Part shown: piece by piece, positions 6,555-62,809 of the stretch
Position numbering within the stretch: the first letter of the stretch is position 1
How the letters are laid out: every line of letters begins with the position of its first letter
IMG/VR virus record: IMGVR_UViG_3300045988_171958
Span: 96,001-160,000 of that record
DNA length: 64,000 bases
Direction: 5' to 3' (one strand)
Origin: a virus
Translations under genes and position numbers: made by a program
Notes under the pieces: model-generated
The model's input: only the letters and a program-made list of their open reading frames with translations
What the model was told of the DNA's origin: nothing
The model's database searches: none

Positions 6555-6559
6555 AATAA

Positions 6560-7142: not shown

Positions 7143-7146
7143 TTAC

Positions 7147-11141: not shown

Positions 11142-11144
11142 TGT

Positions 11145-11381: not shown

Positions 11382-11382
11382 T

Positions 11383-12255
11383 TTAAATAGTATTAGTATT
11401 TATGAAGTAGTCAGCAGAATGGTTCTTCTGAATCCATTCATCTATCTTCTGCATTTCTTCATTAGCCATGTCTCTCCATATACTGTAATTTAAAGTAACT
11501 CCACCTGGTAGTTTGAATTCAAATGTACCAAGAATAGTAGCCATAGAACGTAAGCCAAGACAAACACAATATCTGAAGAAATAGTAGTTCTTGTACAAGT
11601 CTTGTATCTTAAGTCTCTTATATACATTGAGCATCAAATCAGAATGTCCAATAGCTCCTAGTACAACAAGGTCATTACTATAAGTATTGTAATTATATGT
11701 TACTGGAGTATTGAATATGTAGTCAAAAGTATCAAGTTCATATAATGCCGCTGTAACATCAGTCAATGTATATCCACCACCTGATCCATATACATCAGAT
11801 AGGCTACCACCAACTCCAGATGCTATAGCTGAATTGTTCAGTATCATTCTTTCCAAAGAAAAGTCACCCATAACACCATAAGACCAACTATCTGTTGCTT
11901 TGTACAATCCATTTACAGAAAGGATTTGTGGTGGCAACTTAGCAATCATGTTAGCGCCACATTTTGTAAACTCCTTGAATGGAAGACAATACCAACGTTC
12001 TTCTATAGCTCCATCGCAATTTTCCCAGAAATATTGTGCTGCTTGCAATATCAATGGTGGAATAGCTGATGGTTGCATTGGTAAATTTATTGCACATGTC
12101 TGGGTTAATTCTTGAATGATTCTTTGTATGAACTGATAATCTATTTGATCCTCTATTTTTTGTTTTCTCTTATTATATTCTTCTATAGAAATTTCTTTCT
12201 GTATTAAAGGATTATTGCCTGGATTTATGTTTTGTATGCAACTCATTGAATTCAA
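11383..12255 (-). CDS. hypothetical structural protein
   Basis: 290-aa ORF with a 1-nt gap to the next gene. Confidence 0.7.
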   Translation of the reverse strand: MNSMSCIQNINPGNNPLIQKEISIEEYNKRKQKIEDQIDYQFIQRIIQELTQTCAINLPMQPSAIPPLILQAAQYFWENCDGAIEERWYCLPFKEFTKCGANMIAKLPPQILSVNGLYKATDSWSYGVMGDFSLERMILNNSAIASGVGGSLSDVYGSGGGYTLTDVTAALYELDTFDYIFNTPVTYNYNTYSNDLVVLGAIGHSDLMLNVYKRLKIQDLYKNYYFFRYCVCLGLRSMATILGTFEFKLPGGVTLNYSIWRDMANEEMQKIDEWIQKNHSADYFINTNTI

Positions 12256-13244
12256 TCATTTAACTTATTTAAAAATTGAGTTAATAATTCATCTATAAAA
12301 TCTTTTCCTTCTTGTAATGACCAAACTTCTTTAAAATTTAAATTATTTCTTTTAGCTGTTTCTCTTTTATTTACATCATATATAGTCCATGTCTTTATTG
12401 CATTTAAATAATATTTATGGCCATTTTTATATTTTGATTTCCATGATTCTAATTGATTTTTATCATCTACATTATTTTTGTTGTAAGGATGTTTACCATG
12501 GGTCCAATTTCCATTTAATTCAATAAAATAATTCAATTCTGGAATATAAAAATCACATTGCCATGGATATTTCTCTTTATCTCTATATTGTCTTTTTACT
12601 GTTGGAAATTTAGATTTTATATACAAGAAAAGATCTTCTTCCGGTTTAGAAGAATTAAATGAATTATGTTCTTTTAAATTTAAATTTCTATTATATTGAA
12701 CCTTTTCAGAAGACATTATATCTGACATTTTTGTTTTCCAAATAGGAGATTTGGATATCCAATCAACATTATATTTTTCAATACATGTCTTTTTATATTT
12801 CGCTTTTATAACTTCTGATTTGAATGGGTGATCTACTCCATATTTTCTTAAAGAAGTTTCTATGGCAATTTTTCTTTTTTCTTTATCTTTTAATGGTGTT
12901 TCATATCCATATCTATTTAAACAAGTTTGCTTATATTTTTCTAATTTTTCTTTTGCATTATATGAACATTCATGGCAACAATATATAGTAAATGGTTTTT
13001 TAAATTTATTTGTAAAGACTACTTTATTTCCACAAGTTGGACATATTGGTCTTATTTCTATTTTAAGTCTCATTCTTAAAATTGTTTCTTGCCTAGATAA
13101 AGAATCATTATATCTATTATCCAAATAATCAGATATATTAGGATATTTACTTAATTTTCTAATTTTCCAATAATCATTTTTTCCATCTTTATTAGAAATA
13201 ACTTTCAATATTATATTATCGTGATTTGTTTTAATATTTTCCAT
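12252..13244 (-). CDS. homing-endonuclease-like protein (Zn ribbon + Vsr-like PD-(D/E)XK nuclease)
   Basis: RPICPTCGNK...CCHEC, repeats RYGYETP/KYGVDHP/KYNVDW, and nuclease core CDFYIPELNYFIELNGNWTHGKH. Paralog of 17363..18319. Very AT-rich. Confidence 0.7.
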   Translation of the reverse strand: MENIKTNHDNIILKVISNKDGKNDYWKIRKLSKYPNISDYLDNRYNDSLSRQETILRMRLKIEIRPICPTCGNKVVFTNKFKKPFTIYCCHECSYNAKEKLEKYKQTCLNRYGYETPLKDKEKRKIAIETSLRKYGVDHPFKSEVIKAKYKKTCIEKYNVDWISKSPIWKTKMSDIMSSEKVQYNRNLNLKEHNSFNSSKPEEDLFLYIKSKFPTVKRQYRDKEKYPWQCDFYIPELNYFIELNGNWTHGKHPYNKNNVDDKNQLESWKSKYKNGHKYYLNAIKTWTIYDVNKRETAKRNNLNFKEVWSLQEGKDFIDELLTQFLNKLND

Positions 13245-13304
13245 ATTTATTAAAATAGAAATAATTAATTTATATTGTATGTTAAATAAGATTAATGTTA
13301 AATT

Positions 13305-13402: not shown

Positions 13403-13456
13403 TTTTTATTTATATATTCTGATTGTTTTAACGAGTGTATCCTACACCAAAATCAT

Positions 13457-13487
13457 TTTGAAATAAGTTTATCTAATTTACTATTTT
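13457..13487 (+). promoter_or_regulatory. class-II promoter variant (22-nt offset)
   Basis: tttgaaataag...tactatttt, with the -10-like box 22 nt after TTTG. Upstream of the primase-helicase gene. Confidence 0.45.
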
Positions 13488-13549
13488 GATACAAGATAAG
13501 TAAAGTAATATAATGATTTTAAGATTTAGAATAATTGAAAGAATATTAG

Positions 13550-16500: not shown

Positions 16501-17203
16501 CAGAATCAGAAAGTTTGTTTCAATAGAACAAAGCAGAAGAAAACGAAGACTTGATTTCCCTATCTTGAGATTTGTAAAAGATGCTCAGAAATGGGCTGAT
16601 GATACAATGAAATGTACAAGAGAAGAAATAGATGAATGGTTGAAGGAATATGCATGTAAATATGCAAATTCTGTAAAGGATGTTGTAGTTGAAGATAAAG
16701 CATATCTTGAGAAGATTTATGATTTGACATGCAACTTATGGAAAATTGTAATTGACCAATCTAAACCGAAAAATGGAATCATAACAATAAGACCATTTGA
16801 AATGCTTTGGGATACTAAACAAGAAATAAATGAGATTTACCAGAACAACATTACTAAGCAGTTCTTCTTACAAGAACTTATAGAAAACATTAAGATAGAA
16901 GATGAAACTAAGAAAGAAGAAACATTAGAGGAATATGAATCTAAGTTACCAGAAAATCTTCCACACACTTCAAAATACAAATTAGAGCAAATTGAAAGTC
17001 AATTGAAGAATGTAATACATGATGGTTATGATTATAGTGATTATGCTTCAAAGGATGGAACAAATAAGAGATTTGTTGAGAAGATGGAGAATACTAATTC
17101 ATTACGAGGTACGATCTTTGGTCAGAATTTGAACAAATCTGAAGATACTTCTTACATGAAGAAAATGGAAGAGAAAAATTTATTTGAGGATTGTCCATTT
17201 TAA
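13550..17203 (+). CDS. primase-polymerase (AEP-like) fused to SF2 helicase
   Basis: N-terminal IQIIDIDIK (DxD), SASGKSLHVW (sGxxxH), FITSD. Helicase motifs EAGAGYGKTE (Walker A), VLDESHL (DExH), MMTGTP. 1217 aa. Confidence 0.7.
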   Translation: MSNNSNPLNIAQYLKKVAESYSGKTAMTDIYEQFRCMSKEYEAFNEEDTDQEIYSSVNFKECSKEEQDRYLDSVLSMVSCLITNSIYDKVGIVQSWKDVWMLTQDPIYKNVEKASRKVVFSVSSNNRPIGEKSFFMWNGIQIIDIDIKNKKIANELKIKIFEDLNKYHWFLGVAKSASGKSLHVWTKITPISYTDENKKIEYLCNFRHKYSYLYIVLTKYMKEIGYTKDDIFDWMDMAMAKPQQGIFITSDSKALLSTNFIDLRLDANFETAFDTGLESIDWISHPDLKNIFAKLEWFNTENNQKKSVDITAVSDINDVDPSKCIRRHYKHAQRWQLANTLTSLYGYDKALQYMVAICDGTDYKELKGDVKTASIHDKPVSVWAIKQLNKYHGFNIKIEDDNIYKEEQKSLTTNEEDEKIFKSPTDVLNDKDDNLVKLHLNKDQYLSDLKDDILKNLNHITLLEAGAGYGKTEMIKAFKAKTLLILPFTSTIKAKVETSSVTSDWLYYYGNKKPSLEDLLSNKSMSMTIDKFSRLNVMELDTAGFEYIVLDESHLIFTSSYRDVMAPTIQRLANCKAKIIMMTGTPTGEMLFFPGIKHIKVEKDDYREKSFELNMCPTKVEQMIEMAHSMAKDIKDGKKILYPTNKGNLWYDQLTGLVQQYLDDMKFGRQINCFYYKKSNYGEESMDLINFDKSIGNNDIVFCTTYLSVGVDICDKFSFSVYFNEQWIPQDIEQFANRLRNNNLYLKMFLPKKDSVGMPINYYYTQPLDLSLNQGDLLLARDLIKTCNDMIERNNEESKYNPFIQSLLSTNKYLKYDENQCKYFIDETTYKLSVFEDRYASYMKQLPMMIEGLQYYGYVTNVIDHEKEISEDRLEFIEDYLKSCRHMRFNQVTVETLDFLDHVNDGNIDLYRELISGNYNIFKDDEYREMREDNNLYVKDIEIMERNVPIVLSLYKNYNIDTIKDIYKYCIDKKQNRINFSKLNRIRKFVSIEQSRRKRRLDFPILRFVKDAQKWADDTMKCTREEIDEWLKEYACKYANSVKDVVVEDKAYLEKIYDLTCNLWKIVIDQSKPKNGIITIRPFEMLWDTKQEINEIYQNNITKQFFLQELIENIKIEDETKKEETLEEYESKLPENLPHTSKYKLEQIESQLKNVIHDGYDYSDYASKDGTNKRFVEKMENTNSLRGTIFGQNLNKSEDTSYMKKMEEKNLFEDCPF

Positions 17204-17224
17204 TTGAAATGGACACCTCTTTAT
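17192..17224 (+). terminator. hairpin terminator overlapping the stop codon; loop carries a TTGAAAT box
   Basis: tgtccattt-taattg-aaatggaca, a 9-bp stem followed by cctctttatt. Confidence 0.5.
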
Positions 17225-17233
17225 TACTATATT
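17203..17233 (+). promoter_or_regulatory. class-II promoter variant (22-nt offset)
   Basis: attgaaatgg...tactatatt with 22-nt offset. Upstream of the small ORF and the homing endonuclease. Confidence 0.4.
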
Positions 17234-17242
17234 AATATTATT

Positions 17243-17362
17243 ATGGAAGATAAATGTTATTATTGTCCAAGAAATTTCTATTGTAATAAGAATGTTTGTG
17301 AAATAGAAATTAAAGAAAGAGAAAATCTCAATAAGAGAAAGAAACACGTATTTAAATTGTAA
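17243..17362 (+). CDS. possible Cys-rich small ORF (39 aa)
   Basis: Manual translation MEDKCYYCPRNFYCNKNVCEIEIKERENLNKRKKHVFKL. Its stop abuts the ATG of 17363. Confidence 0.3.
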   Translation: MEDKCYYCPRNFYCNKNVCEIEIKERENLNKRKKHVFKL

Positions 17363-18319
17363 ATGGAATATGATAAAATTATTACAAATTTATTAATAAG
17401 TAATAAAAATAAAATTAGAAATGGAATATTAAGAAAAATAAAATTAAAATATCCTAATATATTATCTTATTTAATAAAAAGATATGATGATTCGGAATCA
17501 ATATCTGAAACTATAAGAAGAATTCAATATAATATAGAAAAAAGACCAGTTTGTAAAGTATGTGGTAAAAAGGTAAACTATATTTGTAATGGGAATTATA
17601 GAAATGTTTGTTCTTTTAAATGTGGAGAAATATATTGTAGAGAAAGAAGGTTTAAAACTATGATAGATAAATATGGTACACCATATCCTTATGAAAATAA
17701 AGATATAATGCGAAAAATGAGGGAAAATTTAAAAAATAAATATGGTGTTGATAATCCTTCTAAATTAGAAAATGTAAAAGAAAAGAAGAAAAATACATTT
17801 ATAAAACATTATGGTGTAGATAATTATTTCAAAACTGAAAAATCAGTTAAAAGATCCCATACAAAAGAATGTATAAATAAACAATATTTGACAAAAATAA
17901 AAAATAATTCATTTGGAAAATCTAAACAGGAAGATACAATATATGAAAAAATAAAAGAAGTATATCCAGATGTTATAAGACAATATAAAGATAAAATAAG
18001 ATATCCATATAATTGTGATTTTTATATTCCTGAGATAGATTTATTTATAGAATACCAGGGTTATTATACTCATGGTAAACATCCATTTAATATTAATAAT
18101 GAAAATGATAAAGAATTAATGGAGAAATATATAAATAAATATGGTAATAACAATCAACAATATACTATATGGTGTGTAAAAGATGTAGAAAAAAGGAATA
18201 CTGCAAAAAATAATAATTTAAATTATATTGAATTATTTAATTTTAAAAAATTAGATGAATTAATTGAAATAATAAAAAATAAAAACTATATTAAAAATAT
18301 TAGTAATTTAGTAATTTAA
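17363..18319 (+). CDS. homing-endonuclease-like protein (Zn ribbon + Vsr-like PD-(D/E)XK nuclease)
   Basis: RPVCKVCGKK...CSFKC, repeats KYGTPYP/KYGVDNP/HYGVDNY, and core CDFYIPEIDLFIEYQGYYTHGKH. Paralog of 12252..13244. Extremely AT-rich. Confidence 0.7.
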   Translation: MEYDKIITNLLISNKNKIRNGILRKIKLKYPNILSYLIKRYDDSESISETIRRIQYNIEKRPVCKVCGKKVNYICNGNYRNVCSFKCGEIYCRERRFKTMIDKYGTPYPYENKDIMRKMRENLKNKYGVDNPSKLENVKEKKKNTFIKHYGVDNYFKTEKSVKRSHTKECINKQYLTKIKNNSFGKSKQEDTIYEKIKEVYPDVIRQYKDKIRYPYNCDFYIPEIDLFIEYQGYYTHGKHPFNINNENDKELMEKYINKYGNNNQQYTIWCVKDVEKRNTAKNNNLNYIELFNFKKLDELIEIIKNKNYIKNISNLVI

Positions 18320-29269: not shown

Positions 29270-29833
29270 ATGAGTTATACATATAAATACGTACATTACG
29301 CAGTAACAGTAGATAATGTAATCTTCAATTTGAAGGATCCAAATAATCCTAAGGTGTTGCTCATCACTCGTAAGAATGAACCATTCAAAGGAAAGTTAGC
29401 ACTTCCTGGTGGATTCTTAGATCCAGATGACAGATCTGCAATGTCCGCTGCTATCCGTGAACTTAAGGAAGAGACAAACTTAAGCTTGAGTTATATGTTT
29501 CAAGTTTGTGCTCTTACTAAAGAAGGAAGAGATCCACGAGAGAGATGCATTTCTATTGTATATGCAGATACTGTTCATGATGATTTTGAAGGTCTGATTA
29601 AGGCGCAAGATGATGCATCAACAGTACAATGGGTATCATTAGTAGGTCTAAGAAAAGATGATTTAGCATTTGATCATGCTACTGCTATCTGGAAATCTAT
29701 CCAAGAATTGTTTGATGATGAGTCAAATTGCATTTCATTGTTTGATATCAAAGAAGAACAGTATCAACACACAAAGATGCTTCTTGATACAATAAAATTC
29801 AATTTAGGCCAAACTTTTTTACCAATATTTTGA
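29270..29833 (+). CDS. Nudix hydrolase-like protein
   Basis: LPGGFLDPDDRSAMSAAIRELKEETNL (Nudix box with Asp for the first Glu and one extra residue). The track start at 29249 is GTG; ATG is at 29270. Confidence 0.7.
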   Translation: MSYTYKYVHYAVTVDNVIFNLKDPNNPKVLLITRKNEPFKGKLALPGGFLDPDDRSAMSAAIRELKEETNLSLSYMFQVCALTKEGRDPRERCISIVYADTVHDDFEGLIKAQDDASTVQWVSLVGLRKDDLAFDHATAIWKSIQELFDDESNCISLFDIKEEQYQHTKMLLDTIKFNLGQTFLPIF

Positions 29834-29950
29834 AATTTTAGAAGTTGTTTCTATATGTTAGAACTTCATACTTCAGTTCAGCTAAAGTTAACTAAAGTTA
29901 ACAGGAAATAAAAGTTTGAATTTTAATTCAACTTTTCTATATTAGATATG
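29829..29950 (+). repeat. tandem-promoter cassette, copy 1 of 3 (two class-I promoters plus leader)
   Basis: P1 tttgaaattttagaagttgtttctatatg (29829), P2 tttgaattttaattcaacttttctatatt (29915). A 57-nt block gttaactaaagttaac...ttctatatt is identical in all three copies. Confidence 0.8.
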
Positions 29951-29981
29951 TTAATTTAATAATGAACATTTAAAAATTTTT

Positions 29982-34799: not shown

Positions 34800-35345
34800 T
34801 TATAGCAATATTACTGCACATAGTGCGATAATCATATATAATATAGTTTGTTTCAAAACCCGTTTCAAAGCATAAGTCATTTCTTTTCTGCTCACAACAT
34901 CAATTACAATAAGATAATTGTCTGCATTCAATGGACCCACATGCTTTATGTCGACATTAATATAGTCATAAAGCTTATTTATCTTAAACAAATTGTCAAT
35001 CAAATTGAATTGTCTGTATACCCAATTCTTCACATATTCATTACTGTTTGTGTTGTCCCCATCAATTTCTATGATTGTATTGTTGAAGTCAATCTTTCCA
35101 TCAATGTCAATATAAGGGTTTATTACACCATACAATCTTCCAATCCAATCTTTCTTTATAGATATCCTAAGATACTGCTTCAGAACTGTAAGAAATTCTT
35201 TACTATATAGAGTATCTGATATGTATGACATGTCAGTAATGTATCTGTATATAGACTGTACTAACATTACTAATCTCCAAGTCAGAGTATTTGATCCAAT
35301 TTTCTTCAATATCCAACTTATGCCATGTGATTTCTTGTAAATCAT
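34800..35345 (-). CDS. hypothetical protein with C-terminal TM helix
   Basis: 181 aa with C-terminal TILYMIIALCAVILL. Confidence 0.6.
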   Translation of the reverse strand: MIYKKSHGISWILKKIGSNTLTWRLVMLVQSIYRYITDMSYISDTLYSKEFLTVLKQYLRISIKKDWIGRLYGVINPYIDIDGKIDFNNTIIEIDGDNTNSNEYVKNWVYRQFNLIDNLFKINKLYDYINVDIKHVGPLNADNYLIVIDVVSRKEMTYALKRVLKQTILYMIIALCAVILL

Positions 35346-49857: not shown

Positions 49858-50006
49858 TGTTCATTGATGACAATGGGTATATTGAGTACAATATGAAGGA
49901 AGTATCAGAGACTTATATGCCTACTAGAGCAGAATTAGTTATGGGTGAAAGACCATTCTATAATAGATATTTGAATAACAGAAAGAAGAAACATGGAAGA
50001 AATTAA
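49854..50006 (+). CDS. possible small ORF (50 aa) below track threshold
   Basis: ATGA overlap with the previous stop. Manual translation MMFIDDNGYIEYNMKEVSETYMPTRAELVMGERPFYNRYLNNRKKKHGRN fills the gap. Confidence 0.45.
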   Translation: MMFIDDNGYIEYNMKEVSETYMPTRAELVMGERPFYNRYLNNRKKKHGRN

Positions 50007-50361
50007 ATTAATTAAGGATATTAAGGATATTGTTACAAAGCAAGATGCCGATACTCTCAGCAACAAATTGATGAATGCTGAAGTAGAACTCAATAGGACA
50101 AGAAATTTCTTGAGTGATGCTAGCAATTTCTGTACTGATGATTATGATATGGGTCTTTCTTGTAAGATGATTTTAAGAAAGCATATTGAATATCTTCAGT
50201 ATAATATTGATTTGCTAGAAAAGATGCTTACCAAGTCGCAAAACAATAAGTATATTAAGCGAGATGAGGCACCTGAGTTGACAACTGTTTATAAGAAAGC
50301 AGATACAAAGAAGGAAGTTCCTTACTATACAAGTTCTGATAATGTTGATATGCTGATTTGA
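49993..50361 (+). CDS. hypothetical protein
   Basis: 122-aa ORF. Confidence 0.65.
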   Translation: MEEIKLIKDIKDIVTKQDADTLSNKLMNAEVELNRTRNFLSDASNFCTDDYDMGLSCKMILRKHIEYLQYNIDLLEKMLTKSQNNKYIKRDEAPELTTVYKKADTKKEVPYYTSSDNVDMLI

Positions 50362-50699
50362 TGGAAAAGTTTGTAAAATTGATTCCTCGAAAGATGATAG
50401 AGGAGATGATAGCTTATCGTGATGGAAAGGTAGAATTGACAAATGAAATCATAGGTGAAGTAGATAATTTCAGTGATTTTGTTGTATGCAATAACATAGA
50501 GTTGCCAGGATTGCCACATGGATACGGAACGCGCCTTTACCATAAGGATGATAAAGAACATCAATATCCAGTTTCATATACAGATGCATATTGTCAGATA
50601 CATTATAACATGTTGAAAGAGCATGTTTGTAAGGTACTTGACATACCTAACTATGTATATCTTGATCTTGAATATATGCTGTCAAAATATTTTGATTAA
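50358..50699 (+). CDS. hypothetical protein
   Basis: 113-aa ORF with a 4-nt overlap. Confidence 0.65.
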   Translation: MMEKFVKLIPRKMIEEMIAYRDGKVELTNEIIGEVDNFSDFVVCNNIELPGLPHGYGTRLYHKDDKEHQYPVSYTDAYCQIHYNMLKEHVCKVLDIPNYVYLDLEYMLSKYFD

Positions 50700-50701
50700 A
50701 T

Positions 50702-50737
50702 TTTGAAATTTTCTAAAGCTTTTCTATATTATAATCG
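50702..50737 (+). promoter_or_regulatory. class-I consensus phage promoter
   Basis: tttgaaattttctaaagcttttctatatt with +20 geometry and G at +35. ATG lies 23 nt after the -10 box. Confidence 0.75.
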
Positions 50738-50752
50738 TTAATAAAATATATA

Positions 50753-51082
50753 ATGATTATGAACAAAGTAAAGACAACTATAGAGAATTTTTTCAATTGG
50801 TATACTGGTAATGAATTTCTACATTCTGATTTCGAATATCATGTAATGGAATTCATTACTCCAGATTTAGTTGAAGAATTTGGTTCTGATGAAGAAAGTG
50901 CTTCTTTTACATTAGCTAATGTGCTTAAGTACATTAAAGATGATGAAATCGAAGTGGAAGTAGGTAAAGAAACTGGTGATGCATCAGAAAGCTATTATGC
51001 CAAGTTTACTATTGGTGATGGTGTTCAACTTGATAAGTTTGACTTATGCATCTATACAGCAGATCCATTTAATAATAATTAA
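50753..51082 (+). CDS. acidic hypothetical protein
   Basis: 109-aa ORF. The start context is aATGATTATGAac. Confidence 0.65.
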   Translation: MIMNKVKTTIENFFNWYTGNEFLHSDFEYHVMEFITPDLVEEFGSDEESASFTLANVLKYIKDDEIEVEVGKETGDASESYYAKFTIGDGVQLDKFDLCIYTADPFNNN

Positions 51083-51096
51083 TATAATATAAAGTT

Positions 51097-51216
51097 ATGA
51101 ATGAAAGAAAATTAGATTTTAGAGCTTGTTTTGAGCCAAGTTATTCAATCCAATCAGGTGATGCTGAAGTAGCAGAAATGAGTTATGAAAGAGCTCATGA
51201 GCTTATTTACGGATAA
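51097..51216 (+). CDS. possible small ORF (39 aa)
   Basis: Manual translation MNERKLDFRACFEPSYSIQSGDAEVAEMSYERAHELIYG fills the gap. Confidence 0.35.
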   Translation: MNERKLDFRACFEPSYSIQSGDAEVAEMSYERAHELIYG

Positions 51217-51230
51217 ACAACAGAATTATC

Positions 51231-51656
51231 ATGACAATTGAGAGAATAACAAAACAGAAATTAGATAAGATTAAAGATCTAATTGGAGATTTAAGTGAAA
51301 GTTCTCGTAAGAATTATGGTCCTGGTAAGTTTTTTACTAATGAAACTATAGTCAATGGAGATAAATTGAATGTTTTGACTGCCTTAGTCAAGAATTTGAT
51401 GGTGGATGCTGAAAATTTGCAAAAGACTATAGATATGTATATCGATTTCATTAGAGAAAAGTTACCTAATGAAACTATCACATTCGATCCAAATAAAAAG
51501 AAGTTATATATACCAGAAAAGTTATATATACCAGAAAAGAAAGAAGAAAAGAAACCTATCAATACTCCAACTAAACGTAAGGCACCTAAGCCTACTAAGC
51601 AAGTGAGTAAACCAGATGTTGCAAATGACAATGGTAATGATATGCTTCTTTTGTAG
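51231..51656 (+). CDS. hypothetical Lys-rich protein
   Basis: 141-aa ORF with an internal KLYIPE duplication. Confidence 0.65.
   Translation: MTIERITKQKLDKIKDLIGDLSESSRKNYGPGKFFTNETIVNGDKLNVLTALVKNLMVDAENLQKTIDMYIDFIREKLPNETITFDPNKKKLYIPEKLYIPEKKEEKKPINTPTKRKAPKPTKQVSKPDVANDNGNDMLLL
51503..51538 (+). repeat. perfect 18-nt tandem duplication
   Basis: gttatatataccagaaaa x2 (in frame, encodes KLYIPE KLYIPE). Confidence 0.9.
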
Positions 51657-51673
51657 AAAATAATTCAAATAAA

Positions 51674-51795
51674 TTTGAAATTTTTTGAAACTTTTCTATA
51701 TGTTATAACTTCATACTTCAGTTCAACTGAAGTTAACTAAAGTTAACAGGAAATAAAAGTTTGAATTTTAATTCAACTTTTCTATATTATTAACG
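51674..51795 (+). repeat. tandem-promoter cassette, copy 2 of 3
   Basis: P1 at 51674, leader hairpin acttcagt-tca-actgaagt, and P2 at 51760. Nearly identical to 29829..29950. Confidence 0.8.
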
Positions 51796-51849
51796 TATTT
51801 AATATATACAACAAACAAATATTTTAACAATTTAAATTAAGAAAGAATT

Positions 51850-52224
51850 ATGCAGAGTTTTGAGTCAATTATTGGTGGAAGTGCAAAAGAGGTAAAGGAT
51901 ATTCGTGTAAAGAACGCAACACGATCAATTCAGACACAGTCTGAGATGGATGTAGCTAAGATGGTACAGGACTATCGTAACATGCAGAATGACCTTGAGA
52001 ATTCACTTGACTTGGGTATTACAAATACCACAGATGTTGCCACTAACTTGAAGGCAATTAATCCAGTCGAGATTCTCAATAAGGTGAATACTACAGCTCA
52101 GTCTATGGCAGTTCTCGCTCGAAAAATCAAGATTGCAGTCAAGATCCATAACACATTGTTCCCGACCGCTAAGGTAACTGGTTTGACAGATGATGAGCTT
52201 GACTTCTTGAAGGACTGCATCTAA
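51850..52224 (+). CDS. hypothetical protein (GC-richer by eye)
   Basis: 124-aa ORF behind the tandem promoter. Confidence 0.7.
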   Translation: MQSFESIIGGSAKEVKDIRVKNATRSIQTQSEMDVAKMVQDYRNMQNDLENSLDLGITNTTDVATNLKAINPVEILNKVNTTAQSMAVLARKIKIAVKIHNTLFPTAKVTGLTDDELDFLKDCI

Positions 52225-52248
52225 GTCCTTTATTTATTTGTAAATGAA

Positions 52249-52284
52249 ATGGACATTGCTTTGAACAAAGTAGTGTCCATTTTC
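52249..52284 (+). terminator. nested hairpin terminator overlapping the next promoter
   Basis: atggaca-ttg-ctttg-aa-caaag-tag-tgtccat followed by tttt. Confidence 0.55.
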
Positions 52285-52290
52285 TATATT
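52260..52290 (+). promoter_or_regulatory. class-II promoter variant (22-nt offset)
   Basis: tttgaacaaag...ttctatatt with 22-nt offset. Upstream of the PolB C-terminal gene. Confidence 0.45.
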
Positions 52291-52326
52291 AAATCATATA
52301 TAATATAGCAATAAATAAAGATAAAA

Positions 52327-53619
52327 ATGGAATATAACGTAGAGAAATATGGAGAAAAGAAAGTTTTCTCTGAGCAGTGTCAGCAATTTATGAAAGATAA
52401 GCTTGGAGGTAAAGATATTTATTCACTTTCATTGGAAGAGCTTAAAACATATAAAGAGGACTTGGAACATCTGATAGAAGAGAATTCAATGTTGGAATTA
52501 TGCAGTAAACTTTTGAATAATGCGGCGTACGGTGCATGTGCAAACAGATTCTTTTATTTCTATGATATGCGTGTTGCAAGTGATATTACATGTGAGGCAA
52601 GAAACTTGACAAAATTCATGTGGCATAGACTTGAAGAGTTTTTCCATGAAGATATTTGGAAAAGAAAGGATTTGTGGGAAAAATTTGGATTTGAACTTGA
52701 TGAGTCAAAACATGATTGGTTTAGAGAGCAACATATTAGTGAATATAGTGATACTGATTCTGTATATACCCAATATGGTGATTTCTTCAGATGTTGGACA
52801 CCAGAAACTTTAGCAAGTATTCCAGAACGAGATGATAAGATCAAATGGATATTGAGATTCAATAAAGAGTTTCTTGATAAGCAAAATACTGAATGGATGA
52901 ACAATATGTACAATCCACGACATTGTCATTCAATTCATGAGTTTGAGTTGGAAACTGTTTCTGAAGCAACAATTACATTGAAGAAAAAGAAATATTTGAA
53001 GGCTATGTCTTATTCAAAAGGCAAGTGGTTTACACCTTCAAAGATTACCGGTGTTGGAATTGAGCTTATCAAGACAACTTCTCCTAAGCTTGCAAAGGAA
53101 ATCATTACTGATATGACAAGGTCATTAGTTTATGAAACCGGTACAATGTCAAAAGAAGAATATATTCTCTATTTCAACAGCAGATTGGAAAAGTGGAAGA
53201 AGAAATTCTGGTCAGCTCCTATTGAGGATATTTCTCAGTCAATTAATGTTGGTAATTATAAGAAATATGTTTTGTGTGATGAAGAAGATTTGATGTTTGC
53301 AAAACAGACTCCAGTATCTGTAAAATGTGCAGCAAGATATAACTATTTAGCAAAGAAGAACAATCAGAGAAATCTTCGTATTGTACAAGGGCAGAAAGTA
53401 AAGTATTACAATATAAGATTAGGAAGTACAAAGAAGGCTGAAACAGATTACTTTGGATATCCATCTGGTGAACTTCCATCTTGGGCACCACAATGTGATA
53501 AGGCAATACAATGGCAAAAGAATGTTCTTGATCCATTGAACAGATTTCTTGAAGTAATGAAATTCCCATTGTTGAATGGTAATGGCACAGTCCAGTTTGA
53601 CTTATTTGGAAATGCTTAA
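52327..53619 (+). CDS. family-B DNA polymerase, C-terminal half only (motifs B and C, thumb)
   Basis: SKLLNNAAYGA (motif B KxxxNSxYG), YSDTDSVY (motif C), KKKKYLKA (KKRY-like). No exonuclease motifs or motif A. 430 aa. Confidence 0.8.
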   Translation: MEYNVEKYGEKKVFSEQCQQFMKDKLGGKDIYSLSLEELKTYKEDLEHLIEENSMLELCSKLLNNAAYGACANRFFYFYDMRVASDITCEARNLTKFMWHRLEEFFHEDIWKRKDLWEKFGFELDESKHDWFREQHISEYSDTDSVYTQYGDFFRCWTPETLASIPERDDKIKWILRFNKEFLDKQNTEWMNNMYNPRHCHSIHEFELETVSEATITLKKKKYLKAMSYSKGKWFTPSKITGVGIELIKTTSPKLAKEIITDMTRSLVYETGTMSKEEYILYFNSRLEKWKKKFWSAPIEDISQSINVGNYKKYVLCDEEDLMFAKQTPVSVKCAARYNYLAKKNNQRNLRIVQGQKVKYYNIRLGSTKKAETDYFGYPSGELPSWAPQCDKAIQWQKNVLDPLNRFLEVMKFPLLNGNGTVQFDLFGNA

Positions 53620-53701
53620 AATGAGCATCTCTTTCTAGTACTTCATTCTTCAGTACACCTGAAGTTATTTTTAACTAAATCCATTAAAATTGAATTGAAA
53701 A

Positions 53702-54418
53702 ATGGCAAAGAAATCAACTAATACAGAAGAAACAAAGCAATCAACAGTTGTTTTGAATGATGAAGTAAAAGTAAATCCAATCCAGGATGATACTACAAAT
53801 TCTGGTTCTGATACACCAGAAGATACAACTCAGGACCCAGCCAAAGATCTAGTAGAAAATACTGGTGATAGTGGTGATAATTGTCCTCCTGCTGGTGATT
53901 GTTCAAATCCTGACCATGTATGTACTTGCAAACCAGGTCATTGTCCTAATAAAGATTGCAAGTCAGGTCATTACTGGACAGAAGGTACTGAAAAGGATCA
54001 GTATTTGTACCATTATGATACAGAAGATGAAACTAAAAAGTTAGAAGATGCTGATCATCGTATGGTAAATCCTGATTATAAAGCCCCAGAACCTCCTAAG
54101 GATCCAGATGATGGTAAGACAGATCCACCAACTCCATCAACACCATCAAATGACTGTGGTCCTGAAGTAGCTGAACCTTGGGCTCATGATGAACTACTTC
54201 AAGATGCTGATGGCCACACAGGTTTGGAACGTGAACTTCGTTTGCATTGTGGTGTTACTTATGATGTTGTAAAGATGTGGTTAGATGAAATAGCATCAGC
54301 AACAGATAAAGATGCAGTTATTGCAAAGATTGCTTGGCACATTCCTACTGGTGGACCTAAGAGTATCAAAGTACACCATAAAGAAAAAATCATTGCAGCA
54401 CTCAATACTTTGAAATAA
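53702..54418 (+). CDS. Pro/Asp/Thr-rich protein with a Cys-rich segment
   Basis: 238 aa, includes CPPAGDCSNPDHVCTCKPGHCPNKDCKSGH. Confidence 0.65.
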   Translation: MAKKSTNTEETKQSTVVLNDEVKVNPIQDDTTNSGSDTPEDTTQDPAKDLVENTGDSGDNCPPAGDCSNPDHVCTCKPGHCPNKDCKSGHYWTEGTEKDQYLYHYDTEDETKKLEDADHRMVNPDYKAPEPPKDPDDGKTDPPTPSTPSNDCGPEVAEPWAHDELLQDADGHTGLERELRLHCGVTYDVVKMWLDEIASATDKDAVIAKIAWHIPTGGPKSIKVHHKEKIIAALNTLK

Positions 54419-54439
54419 TCTGTATACATATTCTATATT
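54409..54439 (+). promoter_or_regulatory. class-II promoter variant (22-nt offset)
   Basis: tttgaaataatc...ttctatatt with 22-nt offset. Overlaps the stop of the 53702 gene. Confidence 0.4.
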
Positions 54440-54490
54440 CTTCATATAAAGATAAATATAAGTATTTTTGTTTAATTTAAAGAATATAAC

Positions 54491-54742
54491 ATGTTTCCAG
54501 GATTTGTATCATTATACAAGAGAGATGACAAAAGTCATCTCTTCTTTTTCCCTGGTATTGATGACCAAGGAAAACCAATATACATGTCATTAGACATGAC
54601 AAATATAGATAGTGACTATACGTTTGTCAAGAATTCTGACAAATCTATTGATTATACTTTCAATACAGAAGTTAAGAAAGTTACAGCAGATTTGATAAAC
54701 AGAAAAGATGGACTAGCATATAGGATGACTGTAAAGCTGTAA
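54491..54742 (+). CDS. hypothetical protein
   Basis: 83-aa ORF. Confidence 0.6.
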   Translation: MFPGFVSLYKRDDKSHLFFFPGIDDQGKPIYMSLDMTNIDSDYTFVKNSDKSIDYTFNTEVKKVTADLINRKDGLAYRMTVKL

Positions 54743-54743
54743 A

Positions 54744-55325
54744 ATGAAATATAAAGAACACAAAGATCATCAGTTTATATATGTGTTGGGTTGCCCATCA
54801 AATCCACTAGGTGTCATGAATCGATTGATGGCTTGTGGAGGTGTTGTTGGAGAAGATTTCAAAAGTATTGAATTAGCTAATCCTCACCATGTATTCTACA
54901 TTGATTTTCATGACAACAACAAGATTGTCTATATGGAAGATGATACTATGTTGTGGGAATCTTTGAAGAAAGTTTGGAAAGAATTGCCACCATTGAATGA
55001 GATAGAAAGCTTTCCAGAATCATGGGAAGAAGCAGTAGATTCATTTTATGAAGCTCGTTCTTATGAGGATGATGACAATTCTGTATTGAAAGATGACCTG
55101 TATGAACTTGGTAAGATTCTGATATTGAGAGATATCTACAGAAGAGGATGGGAACCATCTGATGATGGAACACCTTGTTGGGCTGTTGCTGTCCATAATG
55201 GTGAATTAGATGTAAGAAAAGTTACTGGATGGTCAAGATTGTTGTCTTTTGCAGAAGACAGTCAAGCAAACATGTTCTTGAATACATTCGGTAAATCCAT
55301 AGAAGCTGTGAAGCAATATATTTAA
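54744..55325 (+). CDS. hypothetical protein
   Basis: 193-aa ORF with a 1-nt gap. Confidence 0.7.
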   Translation: MKYKEHKDHQFIYVLGCPSNPLGVMNRLMACGGVVGEDFKSIELANPHHVFYIDFHDNNKIVYMEDDTMLWESLKKVWKELPPLNEIESFPESWEEAVDSFYEARSYEDDDNSVLKDDLYELGKILILRDIYRRGWEPSDDGTPCWAVAVHNGELDVRKVTGWSRLLSFAEDSQANMFLNTFGKSIEAVKQYI

Positions 55326-55336
55326 AACCTCCATTG

Positions 55337-55383
55337 AATGGAACAATCAATTGATTGTTCCATTTTTTTTTTTTTTTTTTTTT
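55337..55383 (+). terminator. perfect palindrome plus 21-nt T homopolymer
   Basis: tggaacaatcaattgattgttcca (24-nt perfect palindrome, 55339-55362) followed by T21 (55363-55383). Confidence 0.75.
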
Positions 55384-55401
55384 GAAATTTTAATCATTTA
55401 T

Positions 55402-55437
55402 TTTGAAATTTCTAATCTCTATACTATATTATAAACG
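55402..55437 (+). promoter_or_regulatory. class-I consensus phage promoter
   Basis: tttgaaatttctaatctctatactatatt with +20 geometry and G at +35. An orphan TTTGAAATTT also occurs at 55381. Confidence 0.65.
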
Positions 55438-55470
55438 TTAAAATAAAGATGTTTAATTTTTAAAATTTGA

Positions 55471-56268
55471 ATGATTATGAACTACGCAGAAGTTAAAGCT
55501 AAGTACACAACAGTTGAGTCTATCGATATTCGTTTGAATGAGATTGATGAACTTACTAAGGTTGGAGCTGAGAAATATACAAGTGCTGTTACTAACTACA
55601 TCAACGAAGTGAATGATGTTTTGAAGAAGTTCAACATTACTGAGTACCATGTCAATGTCGCTTCTGATAGAAATGTAAGCTTCAAACCAGAAGATAACAA
55701 CAGTTTCTATGAAGTAGATATCTATCCTTCTTATGAGTATAATTGGGATACTAACAAAAAGGTATGGGATTTCCGTTTGAATATCAGTTCTTATGGTGAT
55801 GTTAGAATCAACAATCTCGATGAAAGAAGCATTAAAGTTCTCAAGTACTATGAGTTTGTTGCGATGATTATCAACAACAAGGAATTTGCGAAGGAACTCG
55901 AAGATACTTGTCACAAGAATGTTGATAACCTTTATAAAATCAATAAGGAATATTCATTTACTTCAGAAGAGCAGCAGCTTAGAATTCTCCGTAACAACCT
56001 CATTAAGGAAGCAGCTTACGGTAAGATTCTTACTTCAGTTATGGATGCCAAAGACAAGACTCAGTTAGTTGTAGTCAAGAAGAATGTTTCAGAAGATGAA
56101 GCTGATGGAGTTCGCAAAGGTGAATTCATCAAGGTGATGACAGAACCTCTTCCTAATACTCCTGAAACTCGTCCAGAAGTTGACAAGAAACTTAAAGAAA
56201 TTGCAAAGACAAATGAAGGTAAGTTTATTCTCACTCAGATCAGATTCATTAAGTTGAATGAAGAATAA
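55471..56268 (+). CDS. hypothetical protein
   Basis: 265-aa ORF. The start context is aATGATTATGAac. Confidence 0.75.
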   Translation: MIMNYAEVKAKYTTVESIDIRLNEIDELTKVGAEKYTSAVTNYINEVNDVLKKFNITEYHVNVASDRNVSFKPEDNNSFYEVDIYPSYEYNWDTNKKVWDFRLNISSYGDVRINNLDERSIKVLKYYEFVAMIINNKEFAKELEDTCHKNVDNLYKINKEYSFTSEEQQLRILRNNLIKEAAYGKILTSVMDAKDKTQLVVVKKNVSEDEADGVRKGEFIKVMTEPLPNTPETRPEVDKKLKEIAKTNEGKFILTQIRFIKLNEE

Positions 56269-56672: not shown

Positions 56673-57980
56673 ATGGAATATAATATAATTGGTAAGTACA
56701 ATAAGGATTGCAAGATTTTTGCAAAGACAGTTGAAGAAGATGCATTGAAGATGGTTTACAGTATTTGTGACTGTCCTGCATTTAAGAATCAGAAGATAAG
56801 AGTGATGTGTGATGTACACTGTGGACAGGGGATAGTGATAGGATTTTCTTCAACTATTGATAAGGAGAATCCAATGGTCAATCCAAGCCATGTAGGTGTG
56901 GATATTGGTTGTCAGGTAACTTGTATCAAGATGTCAAAGCCATGTCCAGAGGAATCTTATGCATTGCTTGAACATCGATGGAAGAAGGATATCCCTACTG
57001 GATTCACTATCTATGATAAGAAGATTGCTGATGAGAAGATGTTCTACAAGATGTGCAATACTGCTATTGACAGAGCTGTTGCTACAACAGATTTTGTGAA
57101 CAATGTAAATGTAAATGAAAAGTACATTTCTGATATGCTGAAGCGAATTGGTATGGATGAAGGTACTTTCTGGAAGTCATTAGGTACTACTGGTGGTGGC
57201 AATCATTTCTTGTCTTATGATACTGATGATGAAGGTAACGGATATATCATGATACATTGTGGTTCTCGCAATTTTGGTTTGAAGGTAGCAAAGTACTGGG
57301 TGAATGTTGCAAACAAGCCTTATCATGTTGACAGTTCAGAATGGGCAAAGCATATTGAAAAGATAAAGGACACATATCCTAAGTCAGAGTGGAATGAGCG
57401 AATCAAGAATGCAAAGGAAGACTTTGTATCATCTGTTCCTACTGGTTATCTGAATGGTGAGAATCTGATTGGTTATCTTACTGATATGGTAATTGCACAG
57501 ACTTATGCTAAGTACAATCATTTGCTTATTTCAGATAAGATGACTGAAATCTATACTAAGATTGTCAAAGGTGCTACAACAGCTCGTGTCATCAATACTA
57601 TGCATAATTATATTGACTTTGATGATATGATTATCCGTAAAGGTTCTGTCAATGCTGCTTATGGACGTGAACTTGTGATTCCTATCAACATGCGAGATGG
57701 TGTATTGATTTGTGTAGGTAAAGGAAATGCTGAATGGAATTGTACTGCTCCTCATGGTGCCGGTCGATTGATGTCACGTTCTGCTGCTAAGGCAAATCTT
57801 TCTATGGATGAATTTACTGAAGAGATGAAGGACGTTTGTTCAACTTCTGTCAACAAGTCAACATTGGATGAGTCTCCTATGGCATACAAGCCTATGGATG
57901 AGATTATTGAACAGATTGAACCAACAGTTCAGATTCTGAAGAGAATAAAAGAGCGAATAAATATTAAAGCAGCTGAATAA
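56673..57980 (+). CDS. rtcB: RtcB-family RNA 3'-phosphate/5'-OH ligase
   Basis: CDVHCGQG, GTTGGGNHFLS, IHCGSRNFGLKVA, APHGAGR. 435 aa. Confidence 0.85.
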   Translation: MEYNIIGKYNKDCKIFAKTVEEDALKMVYSICDCPAFKNQKIRVMCDVHCGQGIVIGFSSTIDKENPMVNPSHVGVDIGCQVTCIKMSKPCPEESYALLEHRWKKDIPTGFTIYDKKIADEKMFYKMCNTAIDRAVATTDFVNNVNVNEKYISDMLKRIGMDEGTFWKSLGTTGGGNHFLSYDTDDEGNGYIMIHCGSRNFGLKVAKYWVNVANKPYHVDSSEWAKHIEKIKDTYPKSEWNERIKNAKEDFVSSVPTGYLNGENLIGYLTDMVIAQTYAKYNHLLISDKMTEIYTKIVKGATTARVINTMHNYIDFDDMIIRKGSVNAAYGRELVIPINMRDGVLICVGKGNAEWNCTAPHGAGRLMSRSAAKANLSMDEFTEEMKDVCSTSVNKSTLDESPMAYKPMDEIIEQIEPTVQILKRIKERINIKAAE

Positions 57981-57983: not shown

Positions 57984-58075
57984 TTTGAAATTTTTGAAGT
58001 TGTTTCTATATGTTAACTAAAGTTAACAGGAAATAAAAGTTTGAATTTTAATTCAACTTTTCTATATTCAGTATG
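57984..58075 (+). repeat. tandem-promoter cassette, copy 3 of 3 (about 30 nt deleted)
   Basis: P1 at 57984 and P2 at 58040. It has the identical 57-nt block but lacks the acttcatacttcag... hairpin segment. Confidence 0.8.
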
Positions 58076-62773: not shown

Positions 62774-62809
62774 ATTGAAATTTTATTTGTTTATTCTATA
62801 TTATAATTG
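62774..62809 (+). promoter_or_regulatory. class-I consensus phage promoter (ATTG variant)
   Basis: attgaaattttatttgtttattctatatt with +20 geometry and G at +35. Confidence 0.65.

What the first reader, a model, noticed from the sequence alone, without database searches (positions are those of the whole stretch)
52327..53619. Family-B DNA polymerase present only as its C-terminal half: split gene or fragment
The ORF starts about 60 aa before motif B (KLLNNAAYG). It contains motif C (YSDTDSVY), a KKKKY motif and a thumb-like C-terminus.

There are no exonuclease motifs and no motif A (DxxSLYPS), and no other ORF in the 64 kb carries them.

Upstream there is a terminator overlapping its own class-II promoter (52249-52290), with stops in all frames. 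The ORF is therefore an independent gene, not a frameshifted continuation.

Split gene 43 (43A/43B) is known in some T4-like Aeromonas phages, and split PolB is known in some archaea. A break inside the fingers just before motif B, with the partner more than 50 kb away or absent, is noteworthy.
Basis: partly seen in the sequence, partly recalled or inferred. Interest (0 to 1): 0.65.

Follow-up and report, generated by a model that had tools for sequence, protein, structure and literature searches.

The report
Two-gene DNA polymerase, halves far apart
This gene encodes the back half of a huge gut phage's DNA-copying enzyme; the front half is a separate gene about 36 kb away, just outside the window, so this is a working two-piece polymerase of a known kind, not a broken remnant.

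Summary
ORF 52327-53619 (+) is a free-standing 430-aa C-terminal half of a family-B DNA polymerase: second fingers helix with motif B, palm motif C, KxY and thumb. It has its own promoter-like site and upstream hairpins. No N-terminal half lies in the 64 kb window.

It is not a fragment or an assembly error. The junction is the same (94-100% identical) in 11 other contigs. dN/dS is 0-0.08. Hundreds of ~415-435-aa homologues exist.

The missing partner was found in three IMG/VR contigs that also carry a 96-99% identical C-half. One of them is about 96% identical to the window in DNA. The partner is a 516-517-aa ORF with ExoI-III and motif A. It lies 34-37 kb downstream of the C-half on the same strand, between DNA ligase and topoisomerase II genes, roughly 25 kb past the window's end.

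The two halves tile an unsplit 926-aa relative exactly at residue 511, at the tip of the fingers. No intein or intron is present. Relatives show a series: unsplit, then halves separated by DUF7487 homing-endonuclease-like genes, then dispersed.

Fingertip splits (T4-like 43A/43B, engineered Pfu) and distantly encoded PolB halves (PhiKZ gp82/gp50, M. thermautotrophicus) are already known and active. This is a new member of a known kind, of moderate interest.

The parts
52327..53619 (+). Gene for the C-terminal subunit of a split family-B DNA polymerase (430 aa): second fingers helix with motif B, C-terminal palm with motif C, KxY, thumb.
   Evidence: ORF list. PHROG 1918 E 2e-45 and phrog_262 positions 462-839. 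Pfam PF00136. RB69 gp43 alignment 528-607 and 616-891. Foldseek to RB69 gp43, E 1e-12. dN/dS 0-0.08.
52507..52533 (+). Motif B, KLLNNAAYG (K61, N65, Y68, G69), on the second fingers helix.
   Evidence: K61, N65, Y68 and G69 are invariant in 15 homologues. Aligned to RB69 K560..Y567.
52744..52767 (+). Motif C, YSDTDSVY (catalytic aspartates). It is uninterrupted here; it is the intein insertion site in relatives.
   Evidence: Y140-S145 and Y147 are invariant and V146 nearly invariant. Relatives P0005, P0014 and L019 carry inteins exactly after DTD.
52981..52995 (+). KKKKY (KxY primer-binding motif).
   Evidence: K220-Y223 invariant.
52208..52232 (+). Terminator-like hairpin plus T-run over the stop codon of the upstream ORF.
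   Evidence: -11.1 kcal/mol, z = -3.0.
52246..52283 (+). Strong 17-bp hairpin followed by UUUUC. It overlaps the -35 element of the gene's own promoter-like site.
   Evidence: -20.4 kcal/mol, z = -6.3, 0 of 200 shuffles as good. Conserved in all conspecific contigs.
52261..52291 (+). Promoter-like site TTGAAC-N18-CTATATTA, a member of a motif class that recurs in the window.
   Evidence: The class TTGAA-N14-20-CTATATTA has 10 sites against 0.13 expected. The same motif precedes the N-half gene in conspecific contigs.
52312..52314 (+). In-frame TAA five codons before the ATG, so the ORF cannot be extended upstream by TAG or TGA recoding.
   Evidence: Read directly.
53648..53664 (+). Weak terminator-like hairpin plus T-run after the gene.
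   Evidence: The fold is not better than shuffles (z = -1.1).
51850..52224 (+). Upstream neighbour, a 124-aa ORF unrelated to the polymerase. It is conserved in relatives, where the GLF and DUF7487 genes are inserted between it and the C-half.
   Evidence: No Pfam hit. Synteny with L060.
12252..13244 (-). Context only: a DUF7487 / phrog_3339 'homing endonuclease' gene. It is of the same family as the genes that sit between or beside the polymerase halves in relatives.
   Evidence: Pfam E 5e-14. PHROG 3339 E 2e-14. tblastn to the L012 gene.
17363..18319 (+). Context only: second DUF7487 / phrog_3339 homing-endonuclease-like gene.
   Evidence: Pfam E 4e-10. PHROG 3339 E 1e-26.

Best explanation
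The ORF encodes the C-terminal subunit of a two-subunit replicative family-B DNA polymerase of a ~290 kb uncultivated phage.

The enzyme's coding sequence is broken at the tip of the fingers domain, between the two long finger helices. The N-terminal subunit (N-domain, 3'-5' exonuclease, palm motif A, first finger helix; 516-517 aa) is a separate gene. It lies about 34-37 kb downstream on the same strand, in the replication module next to NAD-ligase and topoisomerase II genes, and so just outside this window.

Each gene has its own promoter-like site of the same sequence class. The two proteins are made separately and, by inference, assemble non-covalently into one active polymerase. This has been shown experimentally for T4-like gp43A/gp43B, for split Pfu and for PhiKZ gp82/gp50.

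The inferred origin has two steps. First, a DUF7487-type homing-endonuclease gene inserted into the hypervariable fingertip-coding segment. Then a rearrangement moved the C-half gene away.

Shown: gene identity, independence, conservation, the existence and position of the partner in conspecific genomes, exact tiling, and absence of an intein or intron. Inferred: co-expression, physical assembly, activity and the order of evolutionary events.
For: Identity of the C-half.

Independence of the gene: an in-frame TAA, hairpins and a promoter-like site upstream. The junction is the same (94-100% identical) in 11 other contigs.

Functional constraint:
- dN/dS is 0-0.08 for the C-half and 0.04-0.05 for the N-half.
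- The catalytic residues are invariant.

The partner gene:
- A motif scan hit IMG/VR contigs 3300045988_172530, _172955 and _170375.
- These same contigs hold a 96-99% identical C-half.
- Contig 172530 is 96.3% identical to the window in DNA over 16 kb.
- The ORF is 516-517 aa and carries FSDIETE, GWNYYRFD, YYNAIDS and DDFASLYPS.
- It hits Pfam DNA_pol_B_exo1 at 1e-13 and PHROG 2062 at 8e-68.
- From the contig ranges, the N-half starts 37.2 kb (172530), 36.0 kb (172955) and 34.1 kb (170375, if circular) downstream of the C-half end, on the same strand.

Tiling: N-half residues 1-511 align to residues 1-511 of the unsplit 926-aa PolB of L018. C-half residues 10-427 align to residues 511-926.

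Co-evolution: pairwise identities of the N and C halves across six genomes are nearly equal, Spearman 0.90.

Evolutionary series:
- Unsplit: L018.
- N-half, DUF7487, ORF, DUF7487, C-half: L064/L066.
- DUF7487 directly upstream of a relocated C-half: L012, L060, L062.
- N and C 36 kb apart in the opposite order: contig 118233.

Precedent for activity of such splits: PMC3061061, PMC2988022, PMC13648687.
Against: - I could not read the window's own genome beyond the window. The partner's presence and position are taken from one conspecific contig (96% ANI) and two ~91% ANI relatives.
- No expression or protein data exist.
- Assembly of the two subunits was not modelled, because the structure tool does not accept the N-half.
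- The model of the C-half alone has low confidence (pLDDT below 50) around motif B, residues 55-87. That is expected if this helix needs the partner, but it proves nothing.
- A second, complete polymerase elsewhere in the ~290 kb genome cannot be excluded.
Confidence: 0.85

Rival explanations
1. The ORF is a decaying or duplicated fragment, and a complete PolB elsewhere in the genome does the work.
For: Only 64 kb of a ~290 kb genome is visible, so a full-length polymerase elsewhere cannot be strictly excluded.
Against: - dN/dS is 0-0.08 within the species.
- All catalytic motifs are intact and invariant.
- Hundreds of same-length homologues exist.
- The same genomes carry a stand-alone N-half that ends exactly where this ORF begins and diverges in step with it.
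- Each motif scan hit every conspecific contig at only one place.
Confidence: 0.03
2. The halves are joined covalently after expression, either by a split intein (protein trans-splicing) or by RNA trans-splicing.
For: Split inteins and 'fractured genes' do occur in this very polymerase family, but at motif C: L019, P0005, P0014.
Against: - The N-half tail and the C-half head together reproduce the unsplit sequence. At most ~9 residues are unmatched, and there is no ~100-aa IntN or ~35-aa IntC.
- The C-half gives no intein Pfam hit and the N-half gives none either.
- There is no Rfam intron in 50500-54500.
- The C-half gene lies upstream of the N-half gene.
Confidence: 0.02
3. The apparent split is an assembly or frameshift error.
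For: None found.
Against: - The junction is the same (94-100% identical) in 11 other contigs from NCBI, ENA, Logan and IMG/VR.
- There are stops in all three frames upstream.
- The upstream neighbour is an unrelated, conserved ORF.
Confidence: 0.01
4. The C-half has taken on a role of its own, or pairs with a partner other than the canonical N-half.
For: - It sits away from the replication module, among small ORFs near RtcB.
- In another lineage it sits between the capsid and sheath genes.
Against: - Divergence of the N and C halves is congruent.
- All polymerase-site residues are retained.
- A C-half alone lacks motif A and the first finger helix, so it cannot catalyse synthesis.
Confidence: 0.05

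Closest known systems
Bicistronic gp43 (43A/43B) of T4-related phages 25, 31, 44RR, 65 and 133 (Petrov et al. 2006 and 2010, as summarised in PMC3061061 and PMC2988022)
   Same: - Family-B replicative polymerase split within the fingertip, between the two finger helices.
- The N part carries exo and motif A; the C part carries motifs B and C and the thumb.
- There is no intein.
- Homing-endonuclease genes are associated with the gap.
- In those phages the subunits co-purify and are active.
   Different: - There the two genes are adjacent, N then C, 2 bp to 3 kb apart.
- Here they are ~34-37 kb apart, with the C gene upstream of the N gene and each with its own promoter-like site.
- The endonuclease family differs: DUF7487/phrog_3339 here, seg-like there.
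- Sequence identity to T4-type gp43 is only ~22-24%.
PhiKZ DNAP-N (gp82) / DNAP-C (gp50) split PolB (PMC13648687)
   Same: - A jumbo-phage family-B polymerase made from two separately numbered genes (gp82 and gp50); from the numbering I infer they are non-adjacent, with the C-part gene first.
- There it is shown to be a stable 1:1 active complex that resembles RB69 gp43.
   Different: - The PhiKZ break is inside a large palm insertion, and both subunits are much larger (638 + 731 aa).
- Here the break is at the fingertip, and the sum (~947 aa) equals a normal unsplit enzyme.
Split PolB of Methanothermobacter thermautotrophicus (Kelman et al. 1999, cited in PMC3061061)
   Same: The two PolB halves are encoded far apart (85 kb) and assemble without splicing.
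   Different: It is archaeal, and the break is in the palm domain ~83 residues C-terminal to the fingertip position.
Engineered fingertip-split Pfu polymerase (PMC3061061)
   Same: The break is near the fingertip. Separately made fragments reconstitute full activity, and the C fragment needs the N fragment to fold.
   Different: It is artificial, bicistronic and thermophilic.
Split PolB genes annotated in cultured Bacteroidota jumbo phages: Tenacibaculum phage pT24 and Chryseobacterium phage MA9V-2
   Same: - The same break point: their N-halves end, and their C-halves start, at the same alignment position.
- They are the closest cultured relatives, at 25-28% identity.
   Different: Their halves are separated by only two or three genes (one of them a TnpB in MA9V-2), in N-then-C order.
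'Fractured genes' with split inteins and free-standing endonucleases (Dassa et al. 2009, PMC2677866)
   Same: This arrangement occurs in relatives of this same polymerase, at motif C: L019 and P0014.
   Different: The break studied here has no intein halves.

Membership tests
Family-B DNA polymerase (polymerase half) | Motif B KxxxNSxYG on the second fingers helix | tested here: met
   KLLNNAAYG at aa 61-69. Aligned to RB69 K560-Y567. K, N, Y and G are invariant.
Family-B DNA polymerase (polymerase half) | Motif C with the DTD catalytic aspartates | tested here: met
   YSDTDSVY at aa 140-147; Y140-S145 and Y147 invariant, V146 nearly invariant.
Family-B DNA polymerase (polymerase half) | KxY motif and thumb domain, with a fold like RB69 gp43 | tested here: met
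   KKKKY at aa 219-223. Profile alignment to RB69 616-891. Foldseek E 1e-12, TM(query) about 0.54.
Family-B DNA polymerase (whole enzyme) | Exo I-III motifs and motif A (DxxSLYPS) in the same protein | tested here: not met
   They are absent from this ORF and from the window. They are present in the separate N-half gene of conspecific contigs.
Fingertip-split gp43 (43A/43B type) | [quoted passage not shown] | tested here: met
   The two halves tile the unsplit L018 PolB at residue 511. The C-half starts ~50 residues before motif B. No intein domain is present.
Fingertip-split gp43 (43A/43B type) | The two cistrons are adjacent, N then C, 2 bp to 3 kb apart | tested here: not met
   They are 34-37 kb apart, with the C gene upstream of the N gene, in three contigs.
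Fingertip-split gp43 (43A/43B type) | The subunits co-purify and reconstitute polymerase activity | not testable with these tools
   This needs expression and an assay. Only indirect support is available: co-divergence and purifying selection.
Split-intein 'fractured gene' | An IntN at the C-terminus of the first product and an IntC (ending HN, followed by Ser/Thr/Cys) at the N-terminus of the second | tested here: not met
   No extra sequence at either end. No PF14890 hit.
PhiKZ-type DNAP-N/DNAP-C | Split inside a chimallivirus-specific palm insertion domain | tested here: not met
   The break is at the fingertip, and the summed length of ~947 aa leaves no room for a palm insertion (PMC13648687).
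Homing-endonuclease-associated gene split | An endonuclease gene at or next to the break point | tested here: inconclusive
   - In the window no such gene is adjacent to the C-half.
- DUF7487/phrog_3339 genes lie at the break in relatives L064, L012, L060 and L062.
- One lies near the N-half in strains 172955 and 174340.
- Endonuclease activity of DUF7487 rests on the PHROG annotation only.

The most novel reading that the evidence does not exclude
The fingertip split is ancestral to a very large clade of uncultivated gut and rumen jumbo phages, and the C-half gene has been relocated repeatedly. It is found next to the N-half, near RtcB, between the capsid and sheath genes, and 36 kb on either side of the N-half. 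The relocations could be driven by DUF7487 endonuclease-triggered recombination. If so, half of an essential enzyme would behave as cargo of a selfish element, and its separate promoter could give the phage independent control of polymerase assembly or properties.
Probability: 0.2. Interest if true: 0.55.

Novelty: new member of a known kind. Interest (0 to 1): 0.33.

Why it matters
The result explains an apparent half-polymerase in a huge-phage genome. It warns annotators that in this abundant clade the polymerase must be looked for as two genes, which may be tens of kilobases apart and in reversed order.

The clade offers a natural series: unsplit, endonuclease-interrupted, dispersed, and additionally intein-fractured. 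That series could be used to study how essential enzymes tolerate being broken by selfish elements. It could also show whether a fingertip split changes nucleotide selectivity, as it does in engineered Pfu.

The result does not reveal a new mechanism.

Tried and rejected
- Megablast of 50000-56000 against GenBank phages found no match, so no annotated close relative exists there.
- I considered stop-codon recoding as a way to extend the ORF. It is rejected because the in-frame stop upstream is TAA and the upstream ORF is unrelated.
- I guessed that the divergent N-half of L036 (contig 118233) might be this phage's partner. It is rejected: GC is 39% against 31%, and it is an isolated branch. 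It is a different phage, though it too has N and C 36 kb apart.
- I tested the representative P0283 as the partner. It is rejected because none of its hits fall on the conspecific contigs.
- Peptide-pattern scans with WN[SA]Y[RNG]FD, YE[RN]D[PH]EW and GNVYKNDK missed the partner because it differs at each motif.
- A spaced pattern, YES..LD-N93-YN[AG].D, finally found the partner.
I therefore could not confirm the partner in the window's own record or check read support.
- I tested whether the two halves are exchanged independently between phages. This is rejected because their divergence is congruent.
- DUF7487 gave no convincing PDB hit (best E 0.057) and no literature. Its endonuclease role rests on the PHROG annotation and on genomic behaviour.

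Full report
**What is at 52327-53619**

The ORF is real: ATG at 52327, TAA ending at 53619, 430 aa. It is the C-terminal part of a family-B DNA polymerase.
- It matches PHROG 1918, a 382-position 'DNA polymerase' family, at E 2e-45. It also matches positions 462-839 of the 856-position full-length family phrog_262.
- It passes Pfam's DNA_pol_B threshold.
- A profile of the family aligns to RB69 gp43 residues 528-607 (second fingers helix with K560/N564/Y567) and 616-891 (palm motif C and thumb).
- An AlphaFold model (pLDDT 76) finds RB69 gp43 structures as its best matches, Foldseek E 1e-12.

**It is an independent gene**

- Five codons before the ATG there is an in-frame TAA (52312). The other two frames are closed by TAA 52241 and TGA 52245.
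- The upstream ORF (51850-52224) has no polymerase similarity.
- The spacer holds a hairpin plus T-run over the upstream stop codon (52208-52232).
- A very stable 17-bp hairpin follows at 52246-52283, -20.4 kcal/mol, z = -6.3.
- This hairpin overlaps a TTGAAC-18-CTATATTA site at 52261-52291.
- That site belongs to a motif class (TTGAA-N14-20-CTATATTA) with 10 copies in the window against 0.13 expected, mostly just upstream of + strand ORFs.
The label 'class-II' was not tested.

**It is not an assembly artefact and not a decaying fragment**

- The exact protein occurs on many contigs, including NCBI CACVDK010000001.1 (293,853 bp) and ENA contigs of 289,574 and 293,482 bp.
- The window corresponds to about positions 156,653-220,652 of the NCBI record.
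- The 271 bases spanning the junction are 94-100% identical in 11 other contigs, one of which (L006) is the window's own NCBI record. The only structural variant is a 16-bp tandem duplication in one strain.
- Within the species, dN/dS is 0-0.08.
- The database holds hundreds of homologues of 412-435 aa at 54-97% identity, and none of the 120 best is full length.

**No N-terminal half in the window**

- tblastn found nothing better than E 0.3. The queries were the N-halves of two cultured phages, an unsplit relative, a relative with an intein, and finally the conspecific N-half.
- A profile HMM of N-halves against all six-frame segments gave a best E of 0.07.

**Finding the partner**

Relatives supplied the clues.
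- L018 (IMG/VR 3300001483_000002) has an unsplit 926-aa PolB whose C part is 51% identical to the window protein.
- Its N part has more than 1,400 homologues, and most of the 120 listed are stand-alone proteins of ~510-516 aa with the exonuclease domain.
- A full scan of 1.8 billion cluster representatives shows that stand-alone N-halves of 450-520 aa are very common.
- PHROGs already has a 502-position family for them, phrog_2062.

Three peptide patterns from the main clade failed to hit the contigs of this species.

A spaced pattern, Y-E-S-x-x-L-D, 31 codons, Y-N-[AG]-x-D, did hit them.
- It hit IMG/VR contigs 3300045988_172530, _172955 and _170375.
- These contigs also carry a C-half 96-99% identical to the window's over the 116-residue motif C region searched.
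- Contig 172530 is 96.3% identical to the window in DNA over 16 kb. The other two are about 91% identical.

The ORF found there has these properties.
- It is 516-517 aa.
- It carries Exo I (FSDIETE), Exo II (GWNYYRFD), Exo III (YYNAIDS) and motif A (DDFASLYPS).
- It hits Pfam DNA_pol_B_exo1 at 1e-13 and phrog_2062 at 8e-68.
- Its dN/dS is 0.04-0.05.

**Position of the partner**

From the contig ranges:

| Contig | C-half | N-half | Gap from C-half end to N-half start |
|---|---|---|---|
| 172530 | ~85,943-87,235 (+) | 124,393-125,940 (+) | 37.2 kb |
| 172955 | ~44,242 to 42,950 (-) | 7,000 to 5,450 (-) | 36.0 kb |
| 170375 | ~6,071 to 4,780 (-) | 253,627 to 252,077 (-) | 34.1 kb, if the 282,933-bp contig is circularly permuted |

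- In all three the N-half lies downstream of the C-half on the same strand.
- In window coordinates this puts the N-half at roughly 88-91 kb, about 25 kb beyond the window's end.
- Its neighbours are an NAD-dependent DNA ligase, an AAA ATPase and the two topoisomerase II subunits, so it sits in the replication module.
- It is preceded by a terminator hairpin and a TTGAAC-18-CTATATTA site of the same class as the C-half's.

**The two genes make one enzyme**

- N-half residues 1-511 align to residues 1-511 of the unsplit L018 polymerase. C-half residues 10-427 align to 511-926.
- Nothing is missing or duplicated. Neither end carries the extra ~100 or ~35 residues that a split intein would need.
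- Pfam finds no intein. Rfam finds no intron around the gene.
- The break falls after the first finger helix (…KYKYxxxxxxxLxxxIDxLIK…) and about 50 residues before motif B, which is the fingertip.
- Across six genomes where both halves are known, pairwise identities of the N and C parts are almost equal, for example 72.0% and 70.6%, or 55.0% and 55.5%. Spearman correlation is 0.90.
- The halves have therefore co-evolved as a pair rather than being exchanged separately.

**How the arrangement probably arose (inferred)**

The clade shows a series.
- Unsplit: L018.
- N-half, DUF7487, 186-aa ORF, DUF7487, C-half: L064/L066.
- C-half with one or two DUF7487 genes directly upstream but no N-half within 10 kb: L012, L060, L062.
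  - L060 is otherwise syntenic with the window.
  - In L062 the C-half sits between the major capsid and tail sheath genes.
- N and C 36 kb apart in N-then-C order: contig 118233.
- The window's species: C then N, with no endonuclease gene left beside the C-half.

DUF7487 proteins match PHROG families annotated 'homing endonuclease'. They vary in presence between close strains. The window itself carries two of them, at 12252-13244 and 17363-18319.

The likely history is insertion of an endonuclease gene into the fingertip-coding segment, followed by rearrangement.

**Comparison with what is known**

- Splits in the fingertip of gp43 are described for T4-like phages 133, 44RR, 31, 25 and 65, with the cistrons 2 bp to 3 kb apart. 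The 43A and 43B products of phage 25 co-purify and are active (PMC3061061, PMC2988022).
- A Pfu polymerase split near the fingertip keeps full activity, and its C fragment folds only with the N fragment (PMC3061061).
- Distantly encoded halves are known from M. thermautotrophicus, 85 kb apart with a palm split (PMC3061061).
- They are also known from PhiKZ, where gp82 (N) and gp50 (C) form a stable 1:1 active complex with a split in a palm insertion (PMC13648687).
- Cultured Bacteroidota jumbo phages pT24 and MA9V-2 have the same break point with two or three genes in between.

The present case combines a known break point with a known kind of dispersal. The combination, a fingertip split with about 36 kb of separation and reversed order across a large uncultivated clade, was not found in the literature searched. 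It is not a new principle.

**Limits**

- The partner was seen in conspecific contigs, not in the window's own record, which I could not read beyond the window.
- There are no expression, interaction or activity data.
- A second polymerase elsewhere in the genome cannot be excluded.

**Verdict**

- The interpretation 'split gene' is supported, and 'fragment' and 'partner absent' are rejected.
- This is a new member of a known kind.
- Interest is about 0.33.

Noticed in passing
window 3836-3864, 17204-17234, 18264-18293, 29916-29944, 34839-34868(-), 50703-50731, 51761-51789, 52261-52291, 55403-55431, 62775-62803: A recurring promoter-like motif, TTGAA-N14-20-CTATATTA, has 10 sites against 0.13 expected. 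Most lie just upstream of ORFs, which suggests one temporal promoter class of this phage.
   Followed up: partly
window 29829-29961 and 51674-51804; also 58012-58068: A ~134-nt intergenic repeat (about 90% identical) that includes the promoter-like motif. A 57-nt exact copy of part of it lies at 58012-58068.
   Followed up: no
window 12252-13244 (-) and 17363-18319 (+): Two DUF7487 / phrog_3339 'homing endonuclease' genes flank the 1217-aa ORF 13550-17203. The family is multi-copy in relatives (five or more copies within 21 kb in L062) and has no literature.
   Followed up: partly
proteins P0005, P0014, P0015 and P0100 (relatives, 75-89% identical); locus L019 6350-10900: - In near relatives the C-half is broken again, exactly after the DTD of motif C.
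- P0005 carries a ~165-aa mini-intein.
- P0014 starts with an IntC-like segment (...DDILVHN|SVYT).
- L019 has N-extein plus IntN, then a free-standing ORF (phrog_22677), then IntC plus C-extein. This is a 'fractured gene', and P0014 implies a three-piece polymerase in that relative.
   Followed up: partly
L227 3442-4614 (-), compared with L228: A DUF7487 gene is present downstream of the N-half in strains 172955 and 174340 but absent in 170375 and 167932. This presence/absence polymorphism is typical of mobile endonuclease genes.
   Followed up: partly
L062 (ENA STEW19-1 scaffold_28) 5976-17907: In a 64%-identical relative the polymerase C-half sits between the Gp23-like major capsid gene and the tail sheath gene, surrounded by DUF7487 genes.
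   Followed up: no
window 56673-57980 (+) and 4841-5836 (+): An RtcB RNA ligase (Pfam E 5e-57) and a second RNA ligase-family gene (PF09414). This suggests an RNA/tRNA repair capacity.
   Followed up: no
L009 (ENA HALE18-1 scaffold_4956), spacer equivalent to window 52292-52307: A 16-bp tandem duplication, ATCATATATAATATAG, between the promoter-like site and the start codon in one strain.
   Followed up: no
L002 4507-5673 (Chryseobacterium phage MA9V-2): In this cultured phage a TnpB-family gene is one of three genes lying between the two polymerase halves. So a different kind of mobile element occupies the same break point.
   Followed up: no
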